This document shows, one piece after another, positions 4,662 through 48,683 of a stretch of 64,000 nucleotides of DNA; positions within the stretch are counted from its first letter, which is position 1; the number at the start of each line of letters is the position of its first letter. Source of the DNA: Hyphomicrobiales bacterium (GTDB lineage Bacteria > Pseudomonadota > Alphaproteobacteria > Rhizobiales > JAJFHB01); contig JAJFHE010000036.1 in NCBI GenBank assembly GCA_021775755.1, forward strand, positions 52,198 to 116,197, in the 5' to 3' direction. The notes beneath the pieces are model-generated. The model did not search any database, was not told where the DNA came from, and saw only the letters and a program-made list of their open reading frames with translations. The translations under genes were made by a program, and so were the position numbers.

Positions 4662-5561
4662 ATGACCTACGGCGTGCGCGAGACAGCGAAACGGATGGGC
4701 GGCGATGATGCCACCTATGCCGGCATCGTCAGTGCCGTCGTGGCGGCGTTCTTTTTCGTCGGTCAAGATGCCGGCGTCAAATGGCTCACCGCCGAACTTG
4801 TGGTGCTGGAGATCTTGTTTCTGCGCAGCGTGTTCGGGATTGGCTATTGCCTGCTCTACTTCGGCTGGCAGCGCTCGTTCGCGGATCTGTGGGTGGCGCA
4901 GCCCTGGCTCATGATGATCCGCTGCTTCATCAACTTCCTGGCCTGGTGCTGTTTCTTCACGGCGCTCAAATACAAGCCGCTGGCCGATGTGCTGGCGCTT
5001 TTCTTCCTGTTTCCACTGCTGATTACCGCGCTGTCGGTGCCGCTGCTCGGTGAGCGTGTCGGCATCAGGCGATGGCTGGCGGTGCTTGCCGGTTTTGCCG
5101 GCGTGCTGGTTATGCTGAACCCCACCAACGGCATAGACTGGTACTCGTTGCTCGTCATCGGTGCGGCATTGTCATGGTCGGTCGTTGCGATCATGACGCG
5201 CAAGCTTGCGCAAACGGAAACGCCGATGGCGACACTGTTCTACACGCTCTCGACATTCGTGGCGCTCGGGTTTGCGCCGCAGTTCCTTATCTGGGAAACG
5301 CCTTCGGGCGAGACATGGGGTTTGCTGGCGGTAATCTCGCTTCTCGGTGTCCTGGCGCAGTTTTTCATCATCAAAGCCTACAGTATGGCCGCTCCCTCGA
5401 CGGTCGCGCCTTTCGAATACACCGCGCTCATTTGGGCGGTGTTCGTGGGCTACGCGTTGTGGGGCGATATCCCGGGCATTGAGGCAGCGATCGGCGGTAC
5501 GATCATCGTGTTGAGCGGGCTCTATATCATCCACCGTGAAGCCCGGCGTCGGGTCCCGTAG
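4662..5561 (+). CDS. DMT/EamA family transporter
   Basis: About ten hydrophobic segments, LLGERVGIRRW and APFEYTAL motifs; GGAGG before ATG 4662. Confidence 0.9.
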   Translation: MTYGVRETAKRMGGDDATYAGIVSAVVAAFFFVGQDAGVKWLTAELVVLEILFLRSVFGIGYCLLYFGWQRSFADLWVAQPWLMMIRCFINFLAWCCFFTALKYKPLADVLALFFLFPLLITALSVPLLGERVGIRRWLAVLAGFAGVLVMLNPTNGIDWYSLLVIGAALSWSVVAIMTRKLAQTETPMATLFYTLSTFVALGFAPQFLIWETPSGETWGLLAVISLLGVLAQFFIIKAYSMAAPSTVAPFEYTALIWAVFVGYALWGDIPGIEAAIGGTIIVLSGLYIIHREARRRVP

Positions 5562-6474
5562 CGTCGCTTCTGCTGCGCGCACGGTATTGAGCGGGCGACA
5601 GGCCGAACGCATCGGTAAACGCCCGCGTAAAGTAGCTGCGGCTGGCATATCCGACATCGCGCGCGATGGCCTTGACCGAGGCGTCATTGCTCGCCAGCAG
5701 GCGCGCGGCGCGGCGTAGTCTCACCTCGCGCAACATGTCGATCGGCCCGCGGCTAAACGCCTTTGAAAAGTGATCGGCAAAGGCCGATCGGCTCATGTTC
5801 GCGGTTTCGGCGAGGGTATCGAGCGTGTGATGGGTCTGCGGGTCGGAAAATATGCATGTCGCCGCCGCCCATAATCTTGGATCTTCCGCCGCCGCGAACC
5901 ACGCAACAGCATTTTCGCCGCTGGCAATATGTTTGCGCAGAAGTATCACGAGGCATTGCTGCATTAGGGCGCGCGCAATTGCGCGAGTGCCGGCCTGCGG
6001 GCTCGCCAGCTCCTCGACGAAATGCTCGAACAAATGGCGCAACTGGCGATCGTCGCGCAAATCCGCAACGATCGGCTCGTGCAGAAAATCGAGCACGCCA
6101 TCGACATCCTGAAAACTGGCTGACACCCGGCCGCAGACCGCAAGAACTCCGGTTGCACCGCTGCCGTGTCTGATCAGATCCCAGTTGCCTTCAAGCGGGC
6201 GGCAGGCCGGCAGGTCGGGCGCACCGTGCTGAACGGCCGCCAGCCGGTGCGACAAGGATGCGGGCGCCAGCACCACGTGACCCTGGCGGATCGCCAGATC
6301 GGCGCCGCCGGTCATGCGGAACAGTCCTTCGCCCGCGAGAATGAAATGTAGGGTCGCCTTGTCCTGACACCCCATGTTGAGGCGGCCATCGCCACGCACT
6401 TCGCAGACCGCGAATGGGTCCACCTCGACGGTTAGACCGTCGAGCACCTCGTCAAGTCTGCCGCGCGCACTCAT
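5527..6474 (-). CDS. AraC family regulator with N-terminal cupin domain (RclR-like architecture)
   Basis: C-terminal double HTH (TLDTLAETANMSRSAF ... VGYASRSYFTRAFTDAFGLSPAQYR); N-terminal LHFILAGEG cupin strand. Confidence 0.9.
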   Translation of the reverse strand: MSARGRLDEVLDGLTVEVDPFAVCEVRGDGRLNMGCQDKATLHFILAGEGLFRMTGGADLAIRQGHVVLAPASLSHRLAAVQHGAPDLPACRPLEGNWDLIRHGSGATGVLAVCGRVSASFQDVDGVLDFLHEPIVADLRDDRQLRHLFEHFVEELASPQAGTRAIARALMQQCLVILLRKHIASGENAVAWFAAAEDPRLWAAATCIFSDPQTHHTLDTLAETANMSRSAFADHFSKAFSRGPIDMLREVRLRRAARLLASNDASVKAIARDVGYASRSYFTRAFTDAFGLSPAQYRARSRSDATGPDAGLHGG

Positions 6475-6612
6475 TTGGCCATTGTCCGAAGCTGCGGCGT
6501 CATATGCAACGTCTTTGGACGATAGGGCACAGCTTCAAGACCATGAGGCACACGGCTCGCCCTACCCTCAAAGCTCCAAAATGCAGAAGTCCGATCAACC
6601 GGAGGAACCAAA

Positions 6613-7434
6613 ATGAGCTGCTGTGACGATCATGACCACTCAATTTCAAGACGCCGTCTCCTGAAGGCAGGCGCCGCTGGAGCCGCTATTGCCACTGTTG
6701 CGGCGGCCGCGCCATCGGCGGAAGCCGCGGAGAACCCCTATGCCGATCCGGAAAAGGCGGCGCTGCCGCAGACGGACGTTGAGGTGACGCTGGAGAACAC
6801 CGCTCTCGTCGTCACCGACCCGCAGATCGACTTTCTGAGCCCCGACGGTGTCACCTGGGGTGTGGTCGGTGACAGTGTCACGGAACACGACACGGTCGGA
6901 AATATCGGCCGCTTGCTCACCGCCGCCAAATCAGTTGGTATGACAGTGGCGATCTCGCCGCACTATTACTATCCAACCGATCATGGCTGGCGGTTCGGTG
7001 GACCGCTTGAGAAGCTCATGCATGCGATTGGCATGTTCGACCGCCAGAGCCCTCTCAGCATGGACGGTTTTGAAGGCTCGGGCGCGGACTTCATGCCGCA
7101 GTACAAGGCGATGATCGAGGACGGCTCGACCATCATCGCATCACCGCACAAGGTCTATGGACCGGAAGCCAACGACCTTAACCTGCAACTGCGCAAAGCG
7201 GGGATCGACAAGGTGATCCTTGCCGGCATGTCAGCTAATCTCTGCGTACAGGCCCATATGCACGAGTTGCTGGAGATGGGATATGAGGTCGCGGTGGTAC
7301 GCGATGCAACGGCCGCAGCGAAGCTTCCCGAAGGCGATGGCTATCTCGCCGCACTGATCAACTTCCGTTACATGGCCAATGCGCTGTGGTCGACGGACGA
7401 GGCGGTAGCCCGCATTGAAGCGTCAAAAAGCTGA
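6613..7434 (+). CDS. Isochorismatase-family cysteine hydrolase with Tat signal peptide
   Basis: SRRRLLK twin-arginine motif followed by an Ala-rich h-region; triad-bearing motifs VTDPQIDF (D), SPHKVYG (K), GMSANLCV (C); GGAGG SD. Confidence 0.88.
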   Translation: MSCCDDHDHSISRRRLLKAGAAGAAIATVAAAAPSAEAAENPYADPEKAALPQTDVEVTLENTALVVTDPQIDFLSPDGVTWGVVGDSVTEHDTVGNIGRLLTAAKSVGMTVAISPHYYYPTDHGWRFGGPLEKLMHAIGMFDRQSPLSMDGFEGSGADFMPQYKAMIEDGSTIIASPHKVYGPEANDLNLQLRKAGIDKVILAGMSANLCVQAHMHELLEMGYEVAVVRDATAAAKLPEGDGYLAALINFRYMANALWSTDEAVARIEASKS

Positions 7435-7448
7435 AGCCCGCTGAAGAC

Positions 7449-7479
7449 AAAAAAGGAGGCCACCCCGTGAGGGGTGGCC
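7449..7479 (-). terminator. Rho-independent terminator hairpin between convergent genes
   Basis: GGCCACCCC-gtga-GGGGTGGCC perfect stem with an A6 run on its left side (U-run on the minus strand). Confidence 0.8.
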
Positions 7480-7530
7480 CAAGTCTGAGGGGAGGTTTTT
7501 GCCCTGCTCCCACCGTCTCGGGGTGTGATA
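7449..7530 (-). ncRNA. Probable suhB/MmgR (alpha-r8)-like small RNA; 5' end uncertain
   Basis: Minus strand reads GGGCAAAAACCUCCCCUCAGACUUGGGCCACCCCUCACGGGGUGGCCUCCUUUUUU: an anti-SD CCUCCC, then AGACUUGG, a GC-rich stem and a U-run, matching my recollection of the suhB/MmgR core. Not checked against Rfam. Confidence 0.5.
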
Positions 7531-7620
7531 CCGGTGGAAGCTGACAAGACTGGATATAGCGCGCTCAAAGGGCGCGCACTGTGAGCGGGATCACAGTTCC
7601 CCTGATTTCAGGAAAATCTT

Positions 7621-7956
7621 TTACGGCAATGCGTCGGCCGGTGCTTCGTCACGCTCATCCGGCCCGTAATCGCGCAACACCTGAGTGACGCGCAACCGGT
7701 AGCCCGCAAAAAGCTCCGCCCTGCCTTTCGCCTGCGCGGCGCGGTGATTGGTGCGCTGGCGCCATTCGATCACCGCCTCTTCGTCACGCCAGGTCGACAG
7801 CGACAACAGCTTGCCGGGCTCAACCAGACTTTCAAAACGCTCAACGGAGATGAAACCGTCGATGCTCTCCAGATCCTCTTTGAGGCTTGCGGCGATATCG
7901 AGGTAGTGATCCCTGTGGCCTTCACCCGGCCAGACTTCGAAAATTACCGTGATCAT
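7621..7956 (-). CDS. Antibiotic biosynthesis monooxygenase (ABM) domain protein
   Basis: MITVIFEVWP ... GFISVERFESL ... LSLSTWRDEEAVIEWR ... HRAAQAKGR; GGGGGAG SD before ATG 7956. Confidence 0.9.
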   Translation of the reverse strand: MITVIFEVWPGEGHRDHYLDIAASLKEDLESIDGFISVERFESLVEPGKLLSLSTWRDEEAVIEWRQRTNHRAAQAKGRAELFAGYRLRVTQVLRDYGPDERDEAPADALP

Positions 7957-8239
7957 GCTCGCTCCCCCTGTTTCCACCATAGTTTCGGCACTGTTTTGTC
8001 ACGTTGGCGCCATGAAGCGCAATGATGCTTGCCGCACTTTTCAAATTCGAGGCCGCACCGGTTGATGCGGTCCGACGTGCAACCTGATCGCCCCCATGAT
8101 ACTGATTCCTCTATCATGCGGGCCATGACACTGCGTCAGCCTCGGCGCGCATGTCATGGACGGGAACCGCTTCGTGTGGCAGGGTATCGGTTTGCAGGTG
8201 GGCGGTTGACGTTGAAACTATGTCAATCTGGAGATACCT

Positions 8240-11200
8240 ATGGCTCTTCGCCTGGCTTCCGCCGCCCTTATCGCCCTCGCAATATCCTTCCTTTCCGCAG
8301 CAGCCCCCGCCGTCCTCGCGACCGCGCAGGCCGGGGAGAGGCGCGTCATCACGCTGGAGGATGCGGACTATTTCGGCTTCGACTACAAGACGCTGAAAAA
8401 CAGATCCCTGGAGCAATGCCGGGCGGCCTGCCTTGACGATCAGAACTGCCTCGCGTTCACCTATAACGTGTCGGCCCGCTGGTGCTTTCTGAAGAACGAT
8501 TTCGCCGACCTGCGCGCGACGCCAGGGGCGGTCGCGGGGCGCGTAACGTCGTACGATGTTGCCGCCGAAGAGGCACCGGCCCTGGAATTCATTTCTCGCG
8601 GACTGGTGCGCGACGCGGAAGACTATGCGCAGGCCGTCGCGCGCGAGCCGGCCGATCCGAGCCAGGGCAGCGTGGCACTCGGCGAAGCCGCGGTCATTAC
8701 GCTCAGCCAGGAAATGTACAAGGAGGCGGCTGCACTTTACCGCCTCGCCCTGCGCGCCTCGCAGGACAATTTCGACCTGTGGTCAGGACTGGCCGCAGCC
8801 TCTTTGAGGGTCGATGGCGACAGCTATGCGGAAAATGCCGCCCTGGTGCGCGAAGCAACCTCGGCGTCCATCCTCGCCTATCGCACCGCGCCGTCGGCGG
8901 ACCGACGCGCCGATGCGCTGGCGCTGCTGGCAAACGCGCTTATCAGGCGCAACATGTACCGGCCCGCCCTTGAGGCCTACAAGGAGAGCCTGCTGCTGGC
9001 GGATTCAGCCGAAGTGCGCGCCGCCTACGACGAACTGCACGAACAGCACGGCTTCAGGATCATCGACCACACGGTCGATTCAGAAAGCGCCAGTCCGAGA
9101 GCCTGCGTCCGGTTTTCAGAAGAACTCAACGCAAGCCGGGGCGGTTTTGACGATTATGTACGCGTCAACCAGAAAAGCGCCGCGTCGGTCAGCGTGGACG
9201 GCTCGCAACTGTGCATTGACGGCCTGGAACACGGTGAGACCTATCAGGTCGGGCTTCGCGCCGGCATCCCGTCCTCCATCGGCGAGGTGCTGGAAAGCCC
9301 GGTTTCACTGACGCTTTATGTGCGCGACCGCTCGCCGGCGGTGCGGTTTACCGGCCGCAACTTCGTGCTGCCGCGCGTCGGCGCCCACGGCATTCCCGTC
9401 ATTGCCGTGAATACGAAACTCATAGACATCGAGCTTTACCGGATTGCCGAGCGCGCCCTGTCGGAAACCCTGACGCGCGATGAGCTGTTCAGCCAACTCA
9501 ACCGCTATTCCGCCAATGACATCGCCGAGAACCGGGGCTCTTTGATCTGGTCGGGCACGCTCGATGCCGATGGCGATCTCAACCGCGAAACGACCATTTC
9601 CATGCCGGTCGGAGAGGCGCTTCCCGAGCGCACACCGGGCATCTACGTGATGATCGCAAGGCCGCGCGAGGGTGCCAACGAGAGCTGGCGAGCGCAGGCG
9701 ACGCAGTGGTTCGTCGTTTCCGATATCGGTCTGTCGACGCTTATGGGCACGGACGGCCTGCATGTGTTCGCGCGCTCGCTGTCCACCGCCCAGCCGATGC
9801 CCAATGTCGAGGTCACACTGGTGGCGCGCAACAACACCGTGCTTGGCACGGCAGGCACGGACGCACGCGGACAGGTGCGGTTTTCCGCCGGCCTGACGCG
9901 TGGCACGGGCGGTGGTGCGCCGGCATTCGTGTCGGCGGCGCGCGGCGGTAGCGATTTTGCGTTCATCGACCTTGGCAAGCCGGGCTTCGATCTCACCGAC
10001 CGCGGTGTGGAAGGCCGACCGGCACCTGGACCCCTGGACGTTTTTATTTACACGGAGCGCGGTGTTTACCGGCCGGGCGCCACAGTGCATGTGGCCGCTC
10101 TGATGCGCGACGCAGAAGCCGAAGCGGTTGCCGGCACGCCGCTCACATTCATCTACACGCGCCCCGACGGGGTTGAGCACATTCGCTCAGTGGTCCGGGA
10201 CGCCGGCGCCGGCGGCTATGCGCACGATCTCGACCTGCTCGACAGCGCGATGCGCGGTGCATGGCGGGTCGCTGCCCATGTCGACCCCAAGGCAACACCG
10301 CTTGCGGAGTTGAGCTTCCTTGTCGAGGACTTCATTCCCGACCGCATCGAGTTCGATCTTGAGACGGACGCAGTGTCCTTCGATGCTTCCGCCGCGACCC
10401 GGTTCGAGGTTGCCGGACGTTATCTCTATGGCGCCGACGCGGCCGGGCTTCGCCTTGAAGGCGAGCTTGCCGTGCGCCCCGTCACCGCGCTCGCGGGCTT
10501 TGAGGGATATGCATTCGGACTGGCCGACGAACAGGTCCTGCCGAACCGGCTGCCGCTCGATGGGCTGCCGGCGACAGACGAGACAGGCAGGGCGGAGTTT
10601 GACGTTGAGCTCGGCATCCTGCCCGCGACCACGCGTCCGGTCGAGGCCGAACTTACGTTGCGCATGCGCGAAGGCAGCGGCCGGGCGGTCGAACGTTCGC
10701 AGACGCTTGGCGTCGCGCTTCAGCGCTCGCTAATCGGTATCAAGCCGATGTTTGCCGGTGGCACGGTTGGCGAAGGCGAGACGGCGGAGTTCGATATCAT
10801 CGCCGCCAACCCGCAGGGCCGTACAGAATTTTTCGACGGCGCGACCTGGGAACTGCTGCGCATCGAACGCGATTTCCAGTGGTACGAAGTGGACGGCAGA
10901 TGGAACTACGAGGCGGTGAGTTATTCAACGCGGGTCGCGGATGGACGCGTCGACATTGAACCGGATGCGCCTGTGCGGATCGCCGCACCAGTCGAATGGG
11001 GCCGCTACCGCCTGGAAGTGACCAGCGCCGATCAGGGCGGTCCGGTATCGAGCTTTGAGTTCTCCGCCGGCTGGTATGTCGATGTGTCGTCCGCCGATAC
11101 GCCCGACGTACTGGAGCTGACACTCGACAAGTCTTCCTATCTGCCGGGCGATACCGCCCGCATCACGATCTCGCCGCGGTTCTCCGGATCGGCGGTTGTC

Positions 11201-41274: not shown

Positions 41275-41523
41275 ATGGTTGAAAATATCGCAATCAAAAT
41301 CGACGACATCTACGTGCCGATCAGCCGGCGCAAGACGCTTGAACCCGAAAAGGTCGAACCGCTTGCGGAAAGCATTCTCGAAGAAGGCCAGCAGATCCCC
41401 ATTCAGGTACGCGACGACGGCAAGCGGCTGGTGCTCGTTGAAGGCCTGCACCGGCTCGAAGCGTGCAAACTGCTCGGCGAGGAAACGATCATCGGTATCT
41501 TCGTGCACGCGCGGCGGCACTAA
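41275..41523 (+). CDS. Stand-alone ParB/sulfiredoxin N-terminal domain protein
   Basis: LAESILEEGQQIPIQVR and LVEGLHRLEA (GxxRxxA); only 82 aa, no HTH. Confidence 0.85.
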   Translation: MVENIAIKIDDIYVPISRRKTLEPEKVEPLAESILEEGQQIPIQVRDDGKRLVLVEGLHRLEACKLLGEETIIGIFVHARRH

Positions 41524-41535
41524 GGCCGGGCGGCT

Positions 41536-42480
41536 TTACTGGAACAGCGTTCTGGCGACGCGGAAGCCGCGCCTCAGGAAACGGACGCCGACAGGGTCCG
41601 CATCGCGGCTGCTCGAGCGCATGCCGCGCGGTGGCGAGCGATGGGAACCGCCGCGAAAAATCCGTTCGCGGCAGTCGGTGCCGCTGGTGCGCGCCGCGCC
41701 GTCGGACGGTTCGCTTGAATAGAAGTACCAGCAATCCTCGACCCACTCGCTGACATTGCCATGCATGTCGTGAAGCCCGAAGGCGTTTGCGGGAAATGAC
41801 CCTACAGGTGCGGTATTCTTCCAGACATCGGCTCCCGATACCGCGCCCCAGCAGCAGAAATCCTTGCCGTAGTTGGCATAATCGTGGCTCGGCTCGGCGC
41901 CCCACCAGAATTTCGTCGCCGTTCCGGCCCGGGCGGCATACTCCCACTCGGCTTCGGTGAGCAAACGGTAGGTGTCGCCGGTCTTCCCCGACAGCCATTG
42001 CACGTAGGCTTGCGCGTCGTCCCAGGAGATTCTGATGACGGGCTGGCGGCCCCGGCCCCAGCCGTGGTCGTCGGGGGTGTAGCTACAGCCGCCGTCAGTG
42101 AAACAGGCGTCCCATTCACCAAAGGTTACTTCGAACTTTCCGACGGCGAAGGACGCGGCGATGTTAACCTCGTGCTGCGGGCCTTCTGTCATCTGGTCGC
42201 CCAACTCGTCTGTCGGCAGCCCCACTGTGATGGTGCCCGCAGGCAGCACGACCATCTGCGGGCAAACTTCGCAATCCTGGAACTCGCCGCCGAGTTCGAG
42301 CCCAGTCTCGCGCGAGGCGTCCGCCATGCGGTGTGAATCGATCTGCGGATTAGCCAACGTCGTGAGGCGTTCGTAGTTGGAGTTGCCGATGACCCGTGCG
42401 GCACGATTATCGGCGTGCGCCCCGCCCGCCGCGACAACCGTCAGAATGGCCGTGAAAACAGCCGGGACCATCGTGCGCAT
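41536..42480 (-). CDS. Secreted FGE-sulfatase/CLec domain protein carrying a ~35-aa caspase remnant
   Basis: Signal peptide, then AARVIGNSNYERLTTLANPQIDSHRMADASRE fused directly to FQDCEVCPQMVVLPAG...EAEWEYAARAG...GFRVART; no His/Cys caspase dyad. Confidence 0.8.
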   Translation of the reverse strand: MRTMVPAVFTAILTVVAAGGAHADNRAARVIGNSNYERLTTLANPQIDSHRMADASRETGLELGGEFQDCEVCPQMVVLPAGTITVGLPTDELGDQMTEGPQHEVNIAASFAVGKFEVTFGEWDACFTDGGCSYTPDDHGWGRGRQPVIRISWDDAQAYVQWLSGKTGDTYRLLTEAEWEYAARAGTATKFWWGAEPSHDYANYGKDFCCWGAVSGADVWKNTAPVGSFPANAFGLHDMHGNVSEWVEDCWYFYSSEPSDGAARTSGTDCRERIFRGGSHRSPPRGMRSSSRDADPVGVRFLRRGFRVARTLFQ

Positions 42481-42553
42481 AGCAGCCTCATATCGATTCG
42501 TCACACCCGCCCGGAATTCTAACTCCGGCCTGGCTAGGTTATGGAACAAAACC

Positions 42554-44275
42554 TCATGGCGAAAGCGTTCTGGCAACGCGGAACCCGGCCAATTCGTCCA
42601 TAAAAACGGTCCAGCGCCCGTAGCGGCTGGCCGAGCGAAGATCCTTCGCTTCGTCTTTCCAGGAGCCGCCGCGCAGAACGTGCTTTGTGCAGTCACCGCT
42701 CATGCGGGCAGAACCGTCGTCCGGCGCACCCGCATAGCTGTCGTTCCAGCAATCCTCCACCCACTCCGAAACATTGCCATGCATATCGAAAAGGCCGAAG
42801 CCGTTCACATCGGACTGCCCGACGACTGCGGTGCTTCGCAGGTAGCGCGTTAAGCCGCGATGGTTCGCCTCAAGCGAAGCGAGAAAATTGCCTGTGGAAA
42901 ATGGTGTCGTGGTGCCCGCGCGGGCCGCATATTCCCATTCGGCCTCCGAGAGCAGACGGTAGGCCTCGCCGGTCGTCCTTGAGAGCCAAGCCACATAAGC
43001 CTTCGCGTGATCCCAGGAGATGTTCAAGACGGGCTGCCGCCCCCGGCCGAATCTACCTGACGGATGGTGTCCGCATTCCGCACGCGCATGCCTCTTGCAA
43101 AAAGCATCCCATTCGAAGAAGGTCACCTCGAACCTGCCAACCGCGAAGTTTTGGGGAATGGTCACCGTGTGCTGTGGGCCTTCAGTGTCGCGGCGGTCAT
43201 CCTCATCCGCAGGCGACCCCATCATGAACGACCCCGCAGGCACGACCACCATTTCCGGGCAGTCATCGCAGTCGCGGAACTCATCGCCGGTCCGGTACTG
43301 GCCCGTGGGCTGCGGCTGCTCGGGATAGACGCCAACGGCCACCCTGTCTTCATCCGGTTCGCCTTCAAGCTCTATGAGCCGCGCCCTTGCGAACTCGGCG
43401 TAGAGGCTATCGGGAAACTTCTCGATGAACGTCTCCAGCACGGCCCTGCTTTGCGTGTTCTGGATCGCTGTCCATGCTGCGGCGTCCGGAGCCGTGCCGG
43501 GGGTCAAAGGAGCAACGATGGCTCCGGGCAAGAAGTAGAAATCGTCCTTGAGCGACTGCTCCTCCCACGGCGTCTGAGCGCCTCCGGTTTGCGCCTCGAC
43601 CGCGATGCGTGTCTGGCGGAACACATGAATGAGTTCGCTTCCCGCCTGCCTGATCGCTTCGGCAAGTGCCGCCGTATAGGGGCTGTTGGCGCCATTGCCG
43701 TCGGCTGCGACCTGACCGGGCGCTGCGGAATAGGCGATGAGCGAGCCGGACGGTGCCTCGATGCGGCCAAGGCCGCGCGAGGCGGAGCGGAACGCACCGC
43801 GGAACGGATTGTTGCGGCAGGCATCGAGCACGACGATGTTCAGTCTGTTTCTTGCACGCTCCATCTGGCGCAATACCCAGCGCGCGTCGACCGCATCGAG
43901 CTCCAGATCCTCTTCCGTGTTGATGTTGGCGCCAAGCGGCAGCAGGAAGTTCGAATTGAGGGCCTGCACGCCGTGGCCGGCATAGAAGAAGAGGCCCACC
44001 GCGTCCGCACCGGCGGCGGCAAGCTTCGCGCCGAACTCGCGCATGGCGCGGATCATTCCCGAGCGGTCCGCATTCAACGCCTCGACGACCTCAAAACCGA
44101 CATCGCGCAAGGCGCCAGCCATGAGGCGCGCGTCGTTTTCCGGATTGGCGAGCGGCGAGATCAGCTCGTACTCGGAATTGCCGATGACCAACGCGACGCG
44201 CTTTTCAGCGAGAGCGTCGCCCGCCACAAGAAACGTCAGAAAGGCGACCAAAGCAGCCAAGGCTATCGTGCGCAT
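42554..44275 (-). CDS. Secreted caspase-like protease (peptidase C14) fused to an FGE-sulfatase/CLec domain
   Basis: Signal peptide ending ALA; RVALVIGN, FFYAGHG, LDACRNNPF; FGE core EAEWEYAARAG, FGLFDMHGNVSEWV, GFRVART; GAGGTG SD. Confidence 0.92.
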   Translation of the reverse strand: MRTIALAALVAFLTFLVAGDALAEKRVALVIGNSEYELISPLANPENDARLMAGALRDVGFEVVEALNADRSGMIRAMREFGAKLAAAGADAVGLFFYAGHGVQALNSNFLLPLGANINTEEDLELDAVDARWVLRQMERARNRLNIVVLDACRNNPFRGAFRSASRGLGRIEAPSGSLIAYSAAPGQVAADGNGANSPYTAALAEAIRQAGSELIHVFRQTRIAVEAQTGGAQTPWEEQSLKDDFYFLPGAIVAPLTPGTAPDAAAWTAIQNTQSRAVLETFIEKFPDSLYAEFARARLIELEGEPDEDRVAVGVYPEQPQPTGQYRTGDEFRDCDDCPEMVVVPAGSFMMGSPADEDDRRDTEGPQHTVTIPQNFAVGRFEVTFFEWDAFCKRHARAECGHHPSGRFGRGRQPVLNISWDHAKAYVAWLSRTTGEAYRLLSEAEWEYAARAGTTTPFSTGNFLASLEANHRGLTRYLRSTAVVGQSDVNGFGLFDMHGNVSEWVEDCWNDSYAGAPDDGSARMSGDCTKHVLRGGSWKDEAKDLRSASRYGRWTVFMDELAGFRVARTLSP

Positions 44276-44360
44276 GTTCACCTCATTTTGTGCCGTCACG
44301 ATGGCTTTGAAGCCACCGGACACTCGAACTCCAGATCCTTGAGCCAAGGAAGACATAGTC

Positions 44361-46097
44361 TCAATCCACAAGCGTTCTGGCCACACGGAAACCGTCGAAC
44401 TTGTTGCTAAGGTAGGATTTAAGCTTGCGGCGGCGGGCCGAGCGGAGATGTTTCATAAATTCGACCCAGGAGCCGCCGCGCTGAACGTGTTGCCCGCAGT
44501 CGCCGCTCATGCGGGCAGAGCCGTCGTTCGGCGCGCCCTCATAGCTGCCGTTCCAGCAATCCTGCACCCACTCGGCGACATTGCCGTGCATGTCGTGCAG
44601 TCCGAAACGATTTATAGTTTGAATTGAAGAGGTGCCGACACTTGCGGTTCTTCGCAGATTCCGTGCTGAACCGTTGTGGTTTGCCTGAAGCGCAGTGATA
44701 AGGCTGCCTGTCGAGAACGGTGTCGTGGTGCCTGCGCGAGCCGCGTATTCCCATTCGGCCTCGGAGAGCAGACGATAGGTTTCGCCGGTCTTTTTTGAGA
44801 GCCACGCAACATATCTCATCGCGCGATTCCACGTGACATTGATCACCGGGCGGTCACCCCGACCCCAACCCTCATCTTCTGGAAGGATATGGCAGCCGCC
44901 TTCGGAATGGCACGCATCCCATTCGGCAAAAGTCACCTCAAACTTGCCCACCGCGAACGGTCGGGGAATTGTCACCCTGCGCTGTGGGCTCTCGTTACTT
45001 TGGTGGCCCTCCTCGCTCTCGGGCGAGCCCATGGTGAACGATCCCGCAGGGACCACCACCATCTGCGGACACACATCGCAGTCGCGGAACTCATCGCCGG
45101 GCTGGTACTGGCCTGTGGGTTGCGGCTGCTCGGGATAGATGCCGACGGCCACCCTGTCTTCCTCCGGTTCGTCTTCAAGCTGTTCCAGCCGCGCCCTCGC
45201 CAACGCCGCATAAAGACCGCCGGGGTATTCTTGAAGAAAGGCTTCAAGCACGGCTTGGCTCTGCGTGTCCTCGACGGCGGCCCACGCCCGCTCCACGGCA
45301 CCGGACGTTGCAGCCGGCTGCGACGGCGATGACGCAGCGGCAGTTCCTGGTACGAAGTAGAAGTCGCCCAGCAGGGACGATTCCTCCCACGGGGTTTGGC
45401 GGCCGGCGGTTTCGTTGCGCACTTGAATGCGGGCGCGCTTGAAGACCTGTTCGATGGGCAGGCCGGGCACTGCGATCGCTGCGGCGAGCGCTCTAGTGTA
45501 GGGCGAGTTGGCGCCATCGCCATCGGCGGCGCTCTCGCCGGGGGCCGCGGCAAAGGCGACGAGCGAGCCGCTCGCAGCTTCCACCCGCGCCAGCCCGCGC
45601 CCACCGGCCCCCCTCGAGCCGCCAAACGGGTTGTCGCGGCAGGCATCGAGGATAACAAGGTTCAGTGCGTTTCCAGCACCCTCCATCTGGGCGAGGATGT
45701 CGGATGCGCTGATGGCTTCAAGGTCGAGGTCCGCCTCATCGAGGATGTTTGCTTTGAGCGGCAGCAGGAAGTTCTGCCCCTGTGACTGCAAGCCGTGGCC
45801 GGCGTAAAAGAACAGCCCGACAGCGTCCGGCCCCGCCGCCCGCAAGGCCCGGCCGAATTCCTGAATGGCCCGGCCCATGGCGCGGCGGTCCGCATCGGTG
45901 ACGGTAATGACCTCAAAACCCACCTCGCGCAGGGTCGCGGCCATGAGGCGGGCATCGTTCTGCGGGTTGGCGAGCGGCGTAATCGCCTCATAGTTCGAGT
46001 TACCGATGATCAGCGCGACGCGTTGTTCGGCGTGCGCATCACTGGCCGTCAAAGTCACAGAAACCGCGGTCAAAATAACGAAGACTATCGCGCGCAT
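44361..46097 (-). CDS. Secreted caspase-like protease (peptidase C14) fused to an FGE-sulfatase/CLec domain
   Basis: Signal peptide ending AHA; RVALIIGN, FFYAGHG, LDACRDNPF; FGLHDMHGNVAEWV, GFRVART. Confidence 0.92.
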   Translation of the reverse strand: MRAIVFVILTAVSVTLTASDAHAEQRVALIIGNSNYEAITPLANPQNDARLMAATLREVGFEVITVTDADRRAMGRAIQEFGRALRAAGPDAVGLFFYAGHGLQSQGQNFLLPLKANILDEADLDLEAISASDILAQMEGAGNALNLVILDACRDNPFGGSRGAGGRGLARVEAASGSLVAFAAAPGESAADGDGANSPYTRALAAAIAVPGLPIEQVFKRARIQVRNETAGRQTPWEESSLLGDFYFVPGTAAASSPSQPAATSGAVERAWAAVEDTQSQAVLEAFLQEYPGGLYAALARARLEQLEDEPEEDRVAVGIYPEQPQPTGQYQPGDEFRDCDVCPQMVVVPAGSFTMGSPESEEGHQSNESPQRRVTIPRPFAVGKFEVTFAEWDACHSEGGCHILPEDEGWGRGDRPVINVTWNRAMRYVAWLSKKTGETYRLLSEAEWEYAARAGTTTPFSTGSLITALQANHNGSARNLRRTASVGTSSIQTINRFGLHDMHGNVAEWVQDCWNGSYEGAPNDGSARMSGDCGQHVQRGGSWVEFMKHLRSARRRKLKSYLSNKFDGFRVARTLVD

Positions 46098-46180
46098 CAA
46101 CGCCTCATGTTGTTGCAATCGGACCGGCAATGCCCCGCCCGGCAGTCGGGTTCCAGATCCAAGAGACACAGACTCCAACT

Positions 46181-47959
46181 TCACGGCTCAAGCGATCTGG
46201 CGACACGGAACCCTATACTTCCAAAGCTGTTGTAATCGGCACCTGCCCTGCGACGACCACTGTTGCTCAATGATTTGCCGTTGTTGTCGAAATTTCCACC
46301 GCGGGACATACGCCAATCGCAATCGCCGTCGGTGCGCGCTGATCCGTCGCTCGGAGCGTCCGAGTAACCTTCGGTCCAACAATCTTCAACAAACTCGGAG
46401 ACATTGCCGTTCATGTCGTGAAGGCCGAACGGATTGGCGGGAAACGAGCCGACCGGCGCGGTGTTCAGCCACTGGTCACGCCCCGAAGCGAGACCTTCGC
46501 AGCACAGATTTTGTTCTTTCCCGTAATTGGCATATTCGTAACTTGGCGACGGCCCCCACCAGTGGGCCTCACGGGTTCCAGCGCGCGCCGCATACTCCCA
46601 CTCGGCTTCCGTAAGCAGACGATATTCCTCTCCGGTCTTACTCGAGAGCCACACCAAGTAGGCTCTGATTCTAACGTTCCACGAAACATTAATGACAGGC
46701 AGCCGGCCGCGTCCCCAACCCTCATCATCGACTGTTCGGCAACCCCCGTCTGCCACGCAGGCGTCCCATTCAGCGAAGGTCACCTCGAACTTGCCGACCG
46801 CAAAGGAACTGCCAAGCGTAACCCTGTGCCGCGGGCCCAAATATTCGGATCGTGCCAGTCCCATCAAGAACGACCCTGCCGGCACCACCACCATGAGCGG
46901 ACACTCATCGCAGTCCTGAAATTCATCTCCCGCCTGCAGATCGGTCGCGGACGGTTGCTCAGGATAGACGCCGACGGCGACGCGGTCCTCTTCCGGCTCG
47001 CCCTGAAGCTCGTTCAACCGCGCTTTGGCAAACTCCGTGTAGAGGCTATCTGGAAACCTCGCGGCGAATGTCTCCAGCACAGCCTCGCTCTGCGTGTTCT
47101 GGATGACCGCCCACGCGCGCTCGTCGGCGCCGGCGGATGTGGATGGCTGCGCCACGGGTTGCTCGGCGCTGCCTGCGCCCGAGAAGTAGAAGTCGCCGGT
47201 CACCTCGTCGTAGTAGGCGGGGCGCTGGTCGTGGGAGACCGTGGTGGCGAGCTTTTGCACCTCGACGCGCACGCGCCGCGCGGTCTGGGTCAGCGACAGC
47301 CCAGGCTGCCGCAGCAGCGGGATCAGGCTGCGGGTGAAGACGGAATTTGGATTTGCATCCGAGTTGGAGAGGCGGTCGAGCGCCGTCTGTCCGACCCCTG
47401 CCGAATAAAGCACGAACGCGCCCTCGGGCGCTTCGAGACGGCCAAGGCCGCGCGTCGCGCCGACACCGCGCGTGCCGTCGCGCGGAAACGGATTGTTGCG
47501 GCAGGCATCGAGCATCAGGATCGCCACACGCGTGCCGCGGCTGCGGATGCGCTGCAGCACCTGATCGACGGCGATAGCCTCCGCGGTAACGAAGTCATCC
47601 TGCCCCGGCTCGACATTGGGAATATCGACCGGCAGGAGATAGTTGCGACCGGCGATCTCGACACCATGGCCGGCGAAAAAGAACAGCGCCTCATCGCCGG
47701 TTTCCAGTTGCGAGGCAAACAGCTGAAGCTGCCGGTTCATCTCGCGGCGCGACACGTTCTCCGCGCGCAGCACGTCAAAGCCCAGCGCGCCAAGCGTTGC
47801 CCCGATGGCGCGCGCGTCGTTGACGGCCTTTTGAAGCTTCGCCACCTGAGCATAGTCGTCATTGCCGATGACCAGTGCGACACGCTTGGCCGATGCGGGA
47901 GCGGCAAGCCCGACGGCCATGCTCAGGATGCACAGAGTTACTGCCAGCGTTCGGCGCAT
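46181..47959 (-). CDS. Secreted caspase-like protease (peptidase C14) fused to an FGE-sulfatase/CLec domain
   Basis: Signal peptide ending ASA; RVALVIGN, FFFAGHG, LDACRNNPF; FGLHDMNGNVSEFV, GFRVARS. Confidence 0.92.
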   Translation of the reverse strand: MRRTLAVTLCILSMAVGLAAPASAKRVALVIGNDDYAQVAKLQKAVNDARAIGATLGALGFDVLRAENVSRREMNRQLQLFASQLETGDEALFFFAGHGVEIAGRNYLLPVDIPNVEPGQDDFVTAEAIAVDQVLQRIRSRGTRVAILMLDACRNNPFPRDGTRGVGATRGLGRLEAPEGAFVLYSAGVGQTALDRLSNSDANPNSVFTRSLIPLLRQPGLSLTQTARRVRVEVQKLATTVSHDQRPAYYDEVTGDFYFSGAGSAEQPVAQPSTSAGADERAWAVIQNTQSEAVLETFAARFPDSLYTEFAKARLNELQGEPEEDRVAVGVYPEQPSATDLQAGDEFQDCDECPLMVVVPAGSFLMGLARSEYLGPRHRVTLGSSFAVGKFEVTFAEWDACVADGGCRTVDDEGWGRGRLPVINVSWNVRIRAYLVWLSSKTGEEYRLLTEAEWEYAARAGTREAHWWGPSPSYEYANYGKEQNLCCEGLASGRDQWLNTAPVGSFPANPFGLHDMNGNVSEFVEDCWTEGYSDAPSDGSARTDGDCDWRMSRGGNFDNNGKSLSNSGRRRAGADYNSFGSIGFRVARSLEP

Positions 47960-48023: not shown

Positions 48024-48356
48024 TCAGCAACCAGGTGTCGCGGCCTGACCCACGGCGGTCTCTTCGTAGTTGAAGCGCATGTTATGATCGCGGTCGTGCA
48101 GGTGAACGGTCATGGACGACCCGGCGTTGAACTGAAAATTGCCGAGATATCTGACCGAGGAATCGCCGACATAGCGCACGCAATAGGCGACATCGACACG
48201 CGCGCCGCAGCCGTTTTTGAACTTCCAGTTATGCGTACCCGCAACCTGGTTGACGGTAATGCAGCCAATGGTTTCGGCATTCGTGCGATCGCTCCAAAGC
48301 ATTCCACCGCTTAGCGCGAAAGCAACGAACAGACATGTGAAGGCAAGGTACTTCAT
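48024..48356 (-). CDS. Small secreted hypothetical protein with four mature-region cysteines
   Basis: AGGAG SD, MKYLAFTCLFVAFALSGG signal peptide, 110 aa, same strand as the caspase array. Confidence 0.7.
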   Translation of the reverse strand: MKYLAFTCLFVAFALSGGMLWSDRTNAETIGCITVNQVAGTHNWKFKNGCGARVDVAYCVRYVGDSSVRYLGNFQFNAGSSMTVHLHDRDHNMRFNYEETAVGQAATPGC

Positions 48357-48383: not shown

Positions 48384-48683
48384 TCAGACGGGCGCAGCGA
48401 CAATCGCCGAAATCGCGCATTCATGATCGGGCCCGGCGTCGCAACTAAAGCGTTCTGACAATGCGGAATCCGGCGGCGTCAGGAACGGCGGCGTCAATCC
48501 GGCGTCAAACTCCCGCAGGGCATCGGCCATGAGGCGTGCGTCGTTTGCCGGATTGGGAAGCGGTGAGATCAGCTCGTAATCGAAATTGCCGATAACCAGT
48601 GCGATGCACTTTTTGGCGATTGCGCCGCCTGCGGTGACACTCATCAGAAACGCAGCCAAAGGGGCCTGGACCATCGTTCGCAT
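48384..48683 (-). pseudogene. Truncated caspase-FGE paralog (signal peptide plus the first ~35 aa of the caspase domain)
   Basis: MRTMVQAPLAAFLMSVTAGGAIAKKCIALVIGNFDYELISPLPNPANDARLMADALRE, then unrelated sequence and a stop; GAGG SD. Confidence 0.75.

What the first reader, a model, noticed from the sequence alone, without database searches (positions are those of the whole stretch)
41536..46330. Hypervariable C-terminal segment exactly where DGR target proteins carry their variable region
Seen: between the fixed RGG and GFRVAR anchors the four copies read SHRSPPRGMRSSSRDADPVGVRFLRR, SWKDEAKDLRSASRYGRWTVFMDELA, SWVEFMKHLRSARRRKLKSYLSNKFD and NFDNNGKSLSNSGRRRAGADYNSFGSI, while flanking DNA such as the linker (about 43300-43360 versus 45110-45170) is highly similar. 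The last copy retains several AAY (Asn) codons. Known: DGRs diversify this CLec segment by adenine mutagenesis from an AAY-rich template, and caspase-FGE proteins are reported DGR targets in cyanobacteria. Inference: these are remote or former DGR targets, or are under strong diversifying selection. No RT or template repeat is visible in this window.
Basis: partly seen in the sequence, partly recalled or inferred. Interest (0 to 1): 0.68.

Follow-up and report, generated by a model that had tools for sequence, protein, structure and literature searches.

The report
Orphaned DGR-type tips on caspase-lectin genes
Four neighbouring genes for exported caspase-like proteases end in a lectin-like binding patch that differs completely between copies; a mutagenic retroelement (DGR) rewrites this same patch in related bacteria, but this genome has no such element, so the patches are most likely frozen, partly eroded leftovers, which is a known kind of thing.

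Summary
The four quoted strings are correct. The 24-27 codons between RGG(SW) and GFRVAR are among the least conserved stretches in every pairwise comparison of the four tandem caspase + FGE-fold paralogues.

The DGR idea is half right. I found true DGR cassettes in other Proteobacteria, with RT, template repeat and (in L066) bAvd. They rewrite exactly this segment in homologues 50-60% identical, with the same length and scaffold. Across 69 family members from genomes without a DGR-type RT, the codons at template-Asn columns still keep the template's third base. NNY is 85% there against 53% elsewhere, and 77% against 50% even in four-fold-degenerate codons.

This genome (99.45% complete) has no RT, no Avd and no template repeat. 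The copies differ at non-adenine positions, and B and C hold K/E/M/W codons. D has lost scaffold residues that a DGR cannot touch. The four copies keep only a weak footprint: 45/64 third bases match the template pattern against 54% expected, p 0.005.

Verdict: these are not active or remote targets. They are most likely orphaned descendants of DGR-written variable regions, since changed by ordinary mutation or selection. This is a new member of a known kind and of modest interest.

The parts
41536..42480 (-). Copy A: signal peptide, about 35 residues of caspase N-terminus, then an FGE-fold domain. The protease domain is deleted. The longest ORF runs to 42696.
   Evidence: FGE-sulfatase E 1.8e-50, no Peptidase_C14 hit; no AGHG or LDACR motif; likely start.
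41569..41646 (-). Copy A variable-region-equivalent segment (SHRSPPRGMRSSSRDADPVGVRFLRR). It keeps the family scaffold P, R.S.R and R.
42554..44275 (-). Copy B: signal peptide + Peptidase_C14 (His/Cys motifs AGHG and LDACR present) + linker + FGE-fold domain.
   Evidence: AlphaFold model mean pLDDT 88.9. Foldseek gives PvdO TM 0.86, MALT1 caspase TM 0.78 and TvpA TM 0.71.
42587..42664 (-). Copy B variable-region-equivalent segment (SWKDEAKDLRSASRYGRWTVFMDELA).
44361..46097 (-). Copy C: signal peptide + Peptidase_C14 + linker + FGE-fold domain. It is the sister of B.
44394..44471 (-). Copy C variable-region-equivalent segment (SWVEFMKHLRSARRRKLKSYLSNKFD).
46181..47959 (-). Copy D: signal peptide + Peptidase_C14 + linker + FGE-fold domain. 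Its FGE domain is the sister of A's.
46214..46294 (-). Copy D variable-region-equivalent segment (NFDNNGKSLSNSGRRRAGADYNSFGSI). It has one extra codon, and the scaffold SW and RSA are replaced.
48448..48683 (-). Remnant of a fifth copy: signal peptide and about 45 caspase residues. In another frame, the last codons GFRIVRTL-stop survive (48448-48471). The interior is deleted.
   Evidence: weak Peptidase_C14 hit; DNA match to the GFRVAR end.

Best explanation
Copies B, C and D are exported caspase-like (C14) proteases. Copy A has lost the protease domain. Each ends in a non-catalytic FGE-fold (C-type-lectin, PvdO/TvpA-like) domain.

The 24-25 codons between RGGSW and GFRVAR occupy the position of the FGE active site and of the DGR variable region in TvpA. 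I infer that they form the ligand-binding face, so each paralogue has its own specificity.

In related Proteobacteria this exact segment is the variable region of a diversity-generating retroelement (shown). The family as a whole carries the codon scars of adenine-templated rewriting, even in genomes that now lack the retroelement (shown).

This genome has no RT, Avd or template (shown). I therefore infer that the four segments are orphaned descendants of DGR-written variable regions. They were fixed after the element was lost or never came along with the genes. They have since changed by ordinary point mutation, under relaxed or diversifying selection, inside a birth-and-death tandem array. 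They are not being diversified now by a DGR.
For: Architecture: Pfam gives Peptidase_C14 + FGE-sulfatase. The closest solved structure is PvdO, at E 3e-57 by sequence and TM 0.86 by fold, with TvpA at TM 0.71. There is no Cys in the segment.

Real DGRs on the same segment: L015 has RT 7313-8689 (RVT_1) and TR 8682-8808. It has two caspase-FGE targets whose variable regions differ from the TR at adenines only, 16/16 and 17/18 mismatches. L066 has VR, bAvd, RT and TR. Four further RT loci have FGE-type variable regions with 0-2 non-A and 12-17 A mismatches. The templates encode RGGSW-NNN-P-xN-LRSA-N-R-NRN...NNN-x-GF. This has the same length (24 codons after W) and scaffold as A, B and C.

Family footprint in 69 members from genomes without a DGR-type RT: NNY is 85% at the nine template-Asn columns against 53% elsewhere (p 2e-61). 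Four-fold codons have Y3 at 77% against 50% (p 1e-12). K/E/Q/M/W make up 6% against 21% at equally variable control columns, and Asn is the commonest residue. The third-base profile along the segment mirrors the template, including the NGG pattern (G/R/W) at the AGG column.

Window copies: third-base class matches the template at 45 of 64 variable codons against 54% expected (p 0.005). None of 5000 resamplings of control columns reached this. NNY is 25/36.

In a tree built without the segment, A+D lie in a clade with the DGR-linked L015, L014 and L066 domains.

No element here.

Close orthologue pairs elsewhere keep the segment 67-100% identical, with changes almost only at third positions. 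So such segments are normally frozen and under purifying selection.
Against: The footprint in the four copies is weak. NNY 25/36 is not significant against the rest of the domain (p 0.13), and four-fold codons give 9/14 (not significant).

B and C carry K, E, M and W, which are NNR codons. Their variable codons differ at third positions in 10 of 19 cases, against 10 of 50 in neighbouring codons. Classical AAY-templated mutagenesis does not produce that.

B, C and D have lost scaffold residues (P, R; in D also W and RSA) that lie at non-adenine template positions.

No DGR-type RT was found in 40 relatives of this organism, so there is no sign of a recent DGR in the lineage.

The Y3 excess could partly arise without a DGR, if selection favours NNY-only residues (N, D, Y, F, H) and first and second positions turn over faster than synonymous sites.

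Templates are themselves copies of target genes, so some concordance is plain homology.
Confidence: 0.58

Rival explanations
1. There is no DGR history in this lineage. The segment is simply the fast-evolving ligand-binding loop of the FGE/C-type-lectin fold, driven apart after tandem duplication by positive (diversifying) selection for new specificities.
For: For B against C, the segment has dN/dS 1.11 against 0.28 for the rest of the domain. The 19 variable codons have dN 1.11 against a local dS of 0.33; 27 of 47 non-synonymous sites are changed (p 1e-5 against the local synonymous rate). Third positions changed as well. K/E/M/W are present. No RT was found in the genome or in 40 relatives. 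In family pairs that are 50-80% identical elsewhere, the segment is only about 35-39% identical, close to the share of scaffold positions.
Against: This does not explain why equally variable control columns lack the NNY/Y3 excess. It does not explain why the third-base profile follows real templates column by column, including NGG at the AGG column. It does not explain why the window copies match that profile at 45/64. Against the gene-wide dS (0.8-1.0), the B-C variable codons are only about neutral (p 0.16). The low local dS may reflect gene-conversion patches in the flanks.
Confidence: 0.3
2. The cause is relaxed constraint or incipient pseudogenisation. The array is decaying, and the C-terminal segments of some copies are drifting neutrally.
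For: A has lost its protease domain, and a fifth copy is reduced to its two ends. D has replaced the nearly invariant W and RSA, and B and C have lost the conserved P and R. The variable codons of B and C evolve at about the gene-wide synonymous rate.
Against: The reading frames are intact. The rest of each FGE domain is under purifying selection, with dN/dS 0.11-0.28. The catalytic motifs of B, C and D are intact. The model of B is confident through the segment, with pLDDT 95-97. This rival is compatible with the best explanation and does not really oppose it.
Confidence: 0.08
3. The copies are active remote targets of a DGR that is missing from the draft assembly, for example on an unbinned plasmid or prophage.
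For: The genome is a 77-contig draft with 3.9% estimated contamination, so mobile elements may be missing. Remote targets are common in DGR hosts (PMC7517822).
Against: No RT, Avd, bAvd or template was found. The copies differ from one another at non-adenine positions and in scaffold codons, so no single template could serve them. NNR codons occur at template-Asn columns.
Confidence: 0.04

Closest known systems
DGR variable proteins with an FGE-sulfatase-type C-type-lectin variable region (CLec1; prototype Treponema denticola TvpA, PDB 2Y3C; category 'b' of Wu et al. 2018, PMC5758913, including protease-fused forms)
   Same: They share the fold (Foldseek TM 0.71 to 2Y3C; sequence E 1e-13). The variable segment sits at the same place at the extreme C-terminus. 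The scaffold RGGSW...LRSA.R...GFRVA is the same. Homologues of these very genes are rewritten by DGRs in L015 and L066.
   Different: This genome has no RT, no accessory gene and no template repeat. Differences are not confined to template adenines. The segments look frozen and partly eroded.
Cyanobacterial orthocaspase-CLec DGR variable proteins and their DGR-less 'VP homologs' (Vallota-Eastman et al. 2020, PMC7517822)
   Same: The domain order is the same: caspase-like peptidase N-terminal, CLec C-terminal. Dispersed paralogues occur without TR/VR homology. That paper already proposes that diversification components are removed once a variant is selected.
   Different: Here the host appears to be an alphaproteobacterium, judging by its best hits. 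The proteins carry signal peptides and so are exported, whereas most cyanobacterial ones are predicted to be cytosolic. In the cyanobacterial cases the genome still holds a DGR; here it holds none.
PvdO of Pseudomonas aeruginosa (PDB 5HHA), a periplasmic FGE-fold protein without the FGE catalytic cysteines
   Same: It is the closest solved structure (E 3e-57, 43% identity, TM 0.86). It is exported, and it lacks cysteines in the active-site-equivalent segment.
   Different: PvdO is a single-domain pyoverdine-maturation protein. It is not fused to a caspase, and it is not a tandem family with a hypervariable tip.
DGR cassettes found here: Nevskia sp. MAG JAKFUK010000004.1 (L015) and an uncultured gammaproteobacterium CAWCPV010000006.1 (L066)
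   Same: The targets are caspase + FGE-fold (L015) or FGE-fold (L066) proteins, 50-58% identical to copy A's domain. They have the same 24-codon segment.
   Different: Their variable regions match their own template at all non-adenine positions (0-1 of 77-78 mismatched). The window copies mismatch at 34-55% of those positions.

Membership tests
Active DGR target (variable protein) | A DGR-clade reverse transcriptase is present in the genome | tested here: not met
   RVT_1 gave 0 hits. tblastn with BPP-1 Brt gave a best E of 0.09. A profile of 11 DGR RTs gave no hit at E<=10 among 48,719 six-frame ORFs. The L015 RT gave no hit in the own genome.
Active DGR target (variable protein) | A template repeat that differs from the variable region almost only at template adenines | tested here: not met
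   An adenine-tolerant scan of the whole genome on both strands found a best non-self match with at least 25 of 105 non-A mismatches. Real pairs have 0-1.
Active DGR target (variable protein) | An accessory variability determinant (Avd/bAvd) | tested here: not met
   PF05635 and PF22296 each gave 0 hits in the own genome. bAvd was found in L066 as a positive case.
Active DGR target (variable protein) | The variable region lies at the 3' end of a C-type-lectin/FGE-fold domain | tested here: met
   The segment has the same length and scaffold as the variable regions of L015 and L066.
Active DGR target (variable protein) | An IMH element and a hairpin/cruciform just downstream of the variable region | tested here: inconclusive
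   L066 has a GC hairpin over its stop codon. L015 and the window copies show no consistent equivalent.
Active DGR target (variable protein) | Adenine-position heterogeneity among reads or strains | not testable with these tools
No homologue above 60% identity exists in the protein or genome collections.
Orphaned / fossil DGR variable region ('VP homolog') | Homology to variable regions that are demonstrably DGR-written, in the same register | tested here: met
Orphaned / fossil DGR variable region ('VP homolog') | A codon footprint of adenine-only mutagenesis: the third base of template codons is retained, and NNR-only residues are depleted | tested here: inconclusive
   The footprint is strong in the family and in the own dispersed copies E-G, with NNY 23/27 (p 0.0045). 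In the four window copies it is mixed: 45/64 template-concordant third bases (p 0.005), but NNY 25/36 against the domain (p 0.13) and four-fold codons 9/14 (not significant).
Formylglycine-generating enzyme (catalytic) | A pair of catalytic cysteines in the segment after GGS | tested here: not met
   There are no cysteines between RGG and GFRVAR in any copy. The placement of the FGE cysteines is from my own knowledge of the human FGE structures, such as 1Y1E.
FGE-sulfatase / PvdO-like fold (PF03781) | A profile and fold match over the whole domain | tested here: met
   Pfam E 1e-44 to 6e-52. PvdO at E 3e-57. Foldseek TM 0.86.
Peptidase C14 (orthocaspase) | The caspase domain with its His and Cys catalytic motifs | tested here: met
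   B, C and D match at Pfam E 4e-33 to 5e-40, with AGHG and LDACR present. MALT1 caspase gives TM 0.78. Copy A does not meet this test, because its domain is deleted.

The most novel reading that the evidence does not exclude
In this RT-less genome the segment is, or recently was, diversified by something other than a DGR. That could be a local, retroelement-independent hypermutation or a targeted recombination process acting on the tips of a tandem array. The basis is that the 19 variable codons of B and C, third positions included, changed about 3.4 times faster than synonymous sites in the 50 neighbouring codons. Meanwhile the scaffold codons between them stayed almost identical.
Probability: 0.05. 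Interest if true: 0.8.

Novelty: new member of a known kind. Interest (0 to 1): 0.36.

Why it matters
The finding is an example of what a DGR leaves behind: a set of paralogous sensor or binding domains whose binding faces were once randomised and are now fixed.

The side result has some wider use. Of 75 genomes carrying this exported caspase-lectin family, 64 have no DGR-type RT. Their binding tips nevertheless keep a column-by-column codon scar of the template, and they are conserved between close orthologues. This supports the published idea that DGRs act in bursts and are then lost once useful variants exist.

It also offers a simple third-base test for recognising fossil variable regions when no template survives.

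For annotation, it warns that 'SUMF1/EgtB/PvdO family nonheme iron enzyme' is probably a wrong functional label for these proteins.

Tried and rejected
- **Orthologue comparison for the four copies:** this was impossible. The best homologues are 55% identical in the 5.8-billion-protein set, 51% in 30 relatives and 60% in genome contigs.
- **Plain blastn of the 3' ends against the genome:** it found only the paralogues.
- **Hairpin/IMH search downstream of the stop codons:** no consistent element was found, even among genuine DGR targets, so it is not a usable criterion here.
- **Frameshift origin of the B/C difference:** I considered whether frameshifted but similar DNA could explain it. The nucleotide alignment shows no such relation.
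- **D as the most DGR-like copy:** rejected. D has the highest mismatch at non-adenine template positions (51-55%).
- **Cassette-type gene conversion between copies as the source of diversity:** rejected, because no two copies share a segment.
- **Literature search:** one search with loose terms returned nothing relevant.
- **NNY test alone:** it is not significant for the four copies against the rest of the domain (p 0.13). Only the fuller template-concordance test reaches p 0.005.
Full report
**What is there.** Window 41536-47959 (minus strand) holds four head-to-tail paralogues.
- Copies B (42554-44275), C (44361-46097) and D (46181-47959) each have a Sec-type signal peptide, a Peptidase_C14 domain, a linker and an FGE-sulfatase domain. 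The Pfam E-values are 4e-33 to 5e-40 and 1e-44 to 6e-52.
- The caspase His and Cys motifs (AGHG, LDACR) are present in B, C and D.
- Copy A (41536-42480) keeps the signal peptide and about 35 caspase residues and then runs straight into the FGE domain.
- A fifth copy at 48448-48683 is reduced to its first roughly 70 codons plus, in another frame, the last codons GFRIVRTL-stop.
- The genome holds three more FGE domains of this type, on contigs C6, C29 and C55, and more than 20 other caspase paralogues.

- In 26-residue sliding windows, the stretch after RGG ranks among the very lowest in identity in all six pairwise comparisons, from rank 1 to 41 of 338-574 windows.
- Segment identity is 8-31%, against 53-69% for the rest of the domain.
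- The B and C linkers are 72/78 nt identical.
- D does contain five AAY codons.

**Is this a peculiarity of the window?** It is not. I took 114 homologues from the large protein search, none above 55% identity.
- Among them the same 26 residues rank 4th of 241 windows in entropy.
- They show a fixed scaffold, S-W-xxx-P-xx-L-R-S-A-x-R-xxxxxxx-R-xxxx-GFRVAR, with 3-4 bits of entropy at the x positions.
- Family pairs that are 50-80% identical elsewhere share only 35-39% in the segment, which is about the share of positions the scaffold takes up.
- The window copies fall below this because B, C and D have also lost scaffold residues: P and the late R, and in D also W and RSA.

**The fold.**
- By sequence, the domain is closest to PvdO (5HHA, E 3e-57). 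TvpA, the DGR variable protein of Treponema, is at 1e-13, and catalytic FGEs are near 1e-11.
- An AlphaFold model of B (mean pLDDT 88.9, and 95-97 through the segment) matches PvdO at TM 0.86, TvpA at 0.71, FGEs at 0.60-0.71 and the MALT1 caspase domain at 0.78.
- None of the copies has a cysteine in the segment, which is where catalytic FGEs carry their cysteine pair (my own knowledge).
- So the domain is a non-catalytic binding module. That the segment forms its binding face is inferred by homology to TvpA.

**Is there a DGR in this genome?** There is not. The assembly is 5.47 Mb in 77 contigs and 99.45% complete.
- RVT_1 gave no hit.
- PF05635 and PF22296 (Avd, bAvd) gave no hit.
- tblastn with the Bordetella phage BPP-1 reverse transcriptase gave a best E of 0.09.
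- A profile built from 11 DGR-type RTs found here gave no hit at E<=10 among 48,719 six-frame ORFs.
- A scan of both strands of the whole genome, forgiving mismatches wherever the candidate template has an adenine, found nothing better than 25 non-adenine mismatches in 105 nt.
- None of 40 relatives has a DGR-type RT. One has a weak hit (E 1.5e-21) with an in-frame stop.

**Is the family a DGR target elsewhere?** It is, and directly so. Among 79 loci encoding relatives, mostly alphaproteobacterial MAGs with 44-60% identity to copy A's domain, the Brt query hit RTs next to the gene in L015 and L066.
- **L015 (Nevskia sp. MAG).** It has two caspase-FGE genes (5207-7120 and 9086-10732) flanking an RT (7313-8689, RVT_1) and a 127-nt template (8682-8808).
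  - The two variable regions differ from that template at 16 and 17 adenines.
  - They differ at 0 and 1 of 77 other positions.
- **L066.** It has the full order VR, bAvd, RT, TR.
- **The templates.** They encode RGGSW-NNN-P-RN-LRSA-N-R-NRN-TAS-NA-NNN-Q-GF (L015) and RGGSW-NNT-P-QN-VRSA-N-R-NRN-TVS-DR-NNN-L-GF (L066).
  - That is 24 codons between W and GF, exactly as in A, B and C.
  - The Asn codons sit on the family's hypervariable columns.
- **Census.** A DGR-type RT (E 2e-44 or better, 38-53% identity) occurs in 11 of 75 family-bearing genomes.
- **Other RT loci.** In the short loci around ten of those RTs, seven hold an FGE-type variable region. Four of these have a template-like partner with 0-2 non-A and 12-17 A mismatches.

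**Footprint test.** Adenine-only mutagenesis of AAY codons randomises the first two bases and keeps the third. I took the nine columns that are Asn in both templates.
- **Third base, all codons.** In 69 family members from genomes without a DGR-type RT, 85% of codons at these columns are NNY. The rest of the domain gives 53% (p 2e-61).
- **Third base, four-fold codons only.** This subset removes the effect of amino-acid choice. There, 77% end in C/T against 50% (p 1e-12).
- **Residues.** K/E/Q/M/W make up 6%, against 21% at control columns of equal entropy. Asn is the commonest residue.
- **Profile along the segment.** The third-base profile follows the templates column by column. Y3 is 0.74-0.93 at AAY/ACC columns. 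It is 0.39-0.44 at the CGG/CAG, CCG, CTG and AGG columns.
- **The AGG column.** It shows the G/R/W mixture expected from NGG.
- **Genomes with an RT.** They give 90% NNY, and 89% among four-fold codons.
- **Close orthologue pairs.** Pairs 81-95% identical elsewhere keep the segment 67-100% identical, with changes almost only at third positions.

So these segments are normally frozen and selected, not continually varied. The family therefore looks like a large set of DGR-written, later fixed, binding tips.

There are three caveats:
- The MAGs may have lost RT-bearing contigs.
- Part of the Y3 excess could arise if NNY-only residues are favoured and turn over quickly.
- Templates are themselves derived from targets, so some concordance is plain homology.

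**The four window copies on the same tests.**
- **NNY at the nine template-Asn columns.** It is 6, 6, 6 and 7 of 9, or 25/36 in all.
  - This is 69%, against 46% at control columns (p 0.019) and 56% in the rest of the domain (p 0.13).
  - It is significantly below the family's 85% (p 0.014).
- **Four-fold codons.** They give 9/14, which is not significant.
- **Template concordance.** Over all 16 variable columns where the two templates agree in third-base class, the copies match at 45 of 64.
  - The expected rate is 54% (p 0.005).
  - None of 5000 resamplings of control columns reached 45.
  - The RT-less family scores 73%.
- **Comparison with real templates.** The copies mismatch at 34-55% of non-adenine positions. 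Heterologous true variable regions mismatch at 24-25%, and cognate ones at 0-1%.
- **Copies B and C.** They hold K, E, M and W at template-Asn columns.
- **The dispersed copies.** The genome's three other copies look fresher, with NNY 23/27 (p 0.0045).

**Rates.**
- For B against C, the segment has dN/dS 1.11, against 0.28 for the rest of the FGE domain.
- The 19 variable codons have dN 1.11, while the 50 neighbouring codons have dS 0.33. So 27 of 47 non-synonymous sites are changed (p 1e-5 against the local synonymous rate).
- Against the gene-wide dS of 0.8-1.0, however, this is only about neutral (p 0.16).
- The B-C identity profile has 85-92% patches in a 68% background. This suggests gene conversion in the flanks, so the local dS may understate the age of the segment.
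- Third positions differ in 10 of 19 variable codons, against 10 of 50 neighbours (p 0.016). This is not what AAY-templated mutagenesis alone produces.

**Phylogeny.** A tree was built without the segment.
- B and C group with the dispersed copy on C6.
- A and D form a separate pair (SH-aLRT 95) inside a weakly supported clade (83) that also holds the DGR-linked domains of L015, L014 and L066.
- RT-bearing genomes are scattered over the tree.
- The array is therefore not a simple recent in-place expansion.

**Conclusion.**
- Shown: the architecture, the fold, the absence of any DGR component here, the existence of DGRs that rewrite this exact segment in homologues, and a family-wide template-shaped codon scar.
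- Inferred: the four segments descend from DGR-written variable regions and have since been altered by ordinary mutation under relaxed or diversifying selection. They form the ligand-binding face that gives each exported protease (or, for A, a bare binding domain) its own specificity.

I put about 0.58 on that reading. I put 0.30 on ordinary post-duplication diversification without DGR ancestry, 0.08 on mere decay, and 0.04 on active targeting by an unassembled element.

The concept of DGR-less paralogues of variable proteins, and of DGR removal after a variant is selected, is already in print (PMC7517822). Protease-fused FGE-type targets are listed in PMC5758913. Related conflict-system readings are in PMC7159879 and PMC10907252. 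This is a new member of a known kind.

Noticed in passing
window 48448-48683 (-): A fifth copy of the gene is reduced to a signal peptide plus about 45 caspase residues. In another frame, the terminal GFRIVRTL-stop survives. The whole interior is deleted.
   Followed up: partly
window 41536-42480 (-): Copy A has lost the caspase domain through an internal deletion. It keeps the signal peptide and an intact FGE-fold domain, giving an exported 'binding domain only' version.
   Followed up: partly
window 42733-43402 vs 44540-45210 (-): B and C are 68% identical in DNA overall but have patches of 85-92% identity in the linker and in two stretches of the FGE domain. This suggests gene-conversion tracts within the array.
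   Followed up: partly
window 41536-47959; tree: The FGE domains of A+D and of B+C belong to different clades of the family. B+C group with a dispersed copy on contig C6. So the array is a mosaic and not one recent expansion.
   Followed up: partly
genome contigs C42, C33, C16, C57, C45, C40, C5, C27, C21, C32: The genome carries more than 20 further Peptidase_C14 paralogues, including a cluster of at least five on contig C42 at 7.9-23.3 kb. This is an unusually large caspase repertoire.
   Followed up: no
window 41275-41523 (+): An 82-residue ORF with a weak ParB N-terminal domain match (E 2e-5, below the Pfam cut-off) converges on the 3' end of copy A.
   Followed up: no
window 48024-48356 (-): A 110-residue ORF with a signal peptide and several cysteines, with no Pfam match, lies between copy D and the remnant fifth copy.
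   Followed up: no
L015:5207-10732 (Nevskia sp. MAG JAKFUK010000004.1): A compact DGR has two caspase-FGE targets flanking the RT and template. A third caspase gene lies downstream at about 13.0 kb, and two further FGE-fold genes lie on the other strand.
   Followed up: partly
genome of L066 (handle G093): This gammaproteobacterial MAG holds four DGR-type RT genes. One of them has an in-frame TGA.
   Followed up: no
G022:C386:1123-1995 (locus L113): A relative from the same order has an RT-like frame 37% identical to the L015 DGR RT (E 1.5e-21), interrupted by a TAG. It may be a decayed DGR RT.
   Followed up: no
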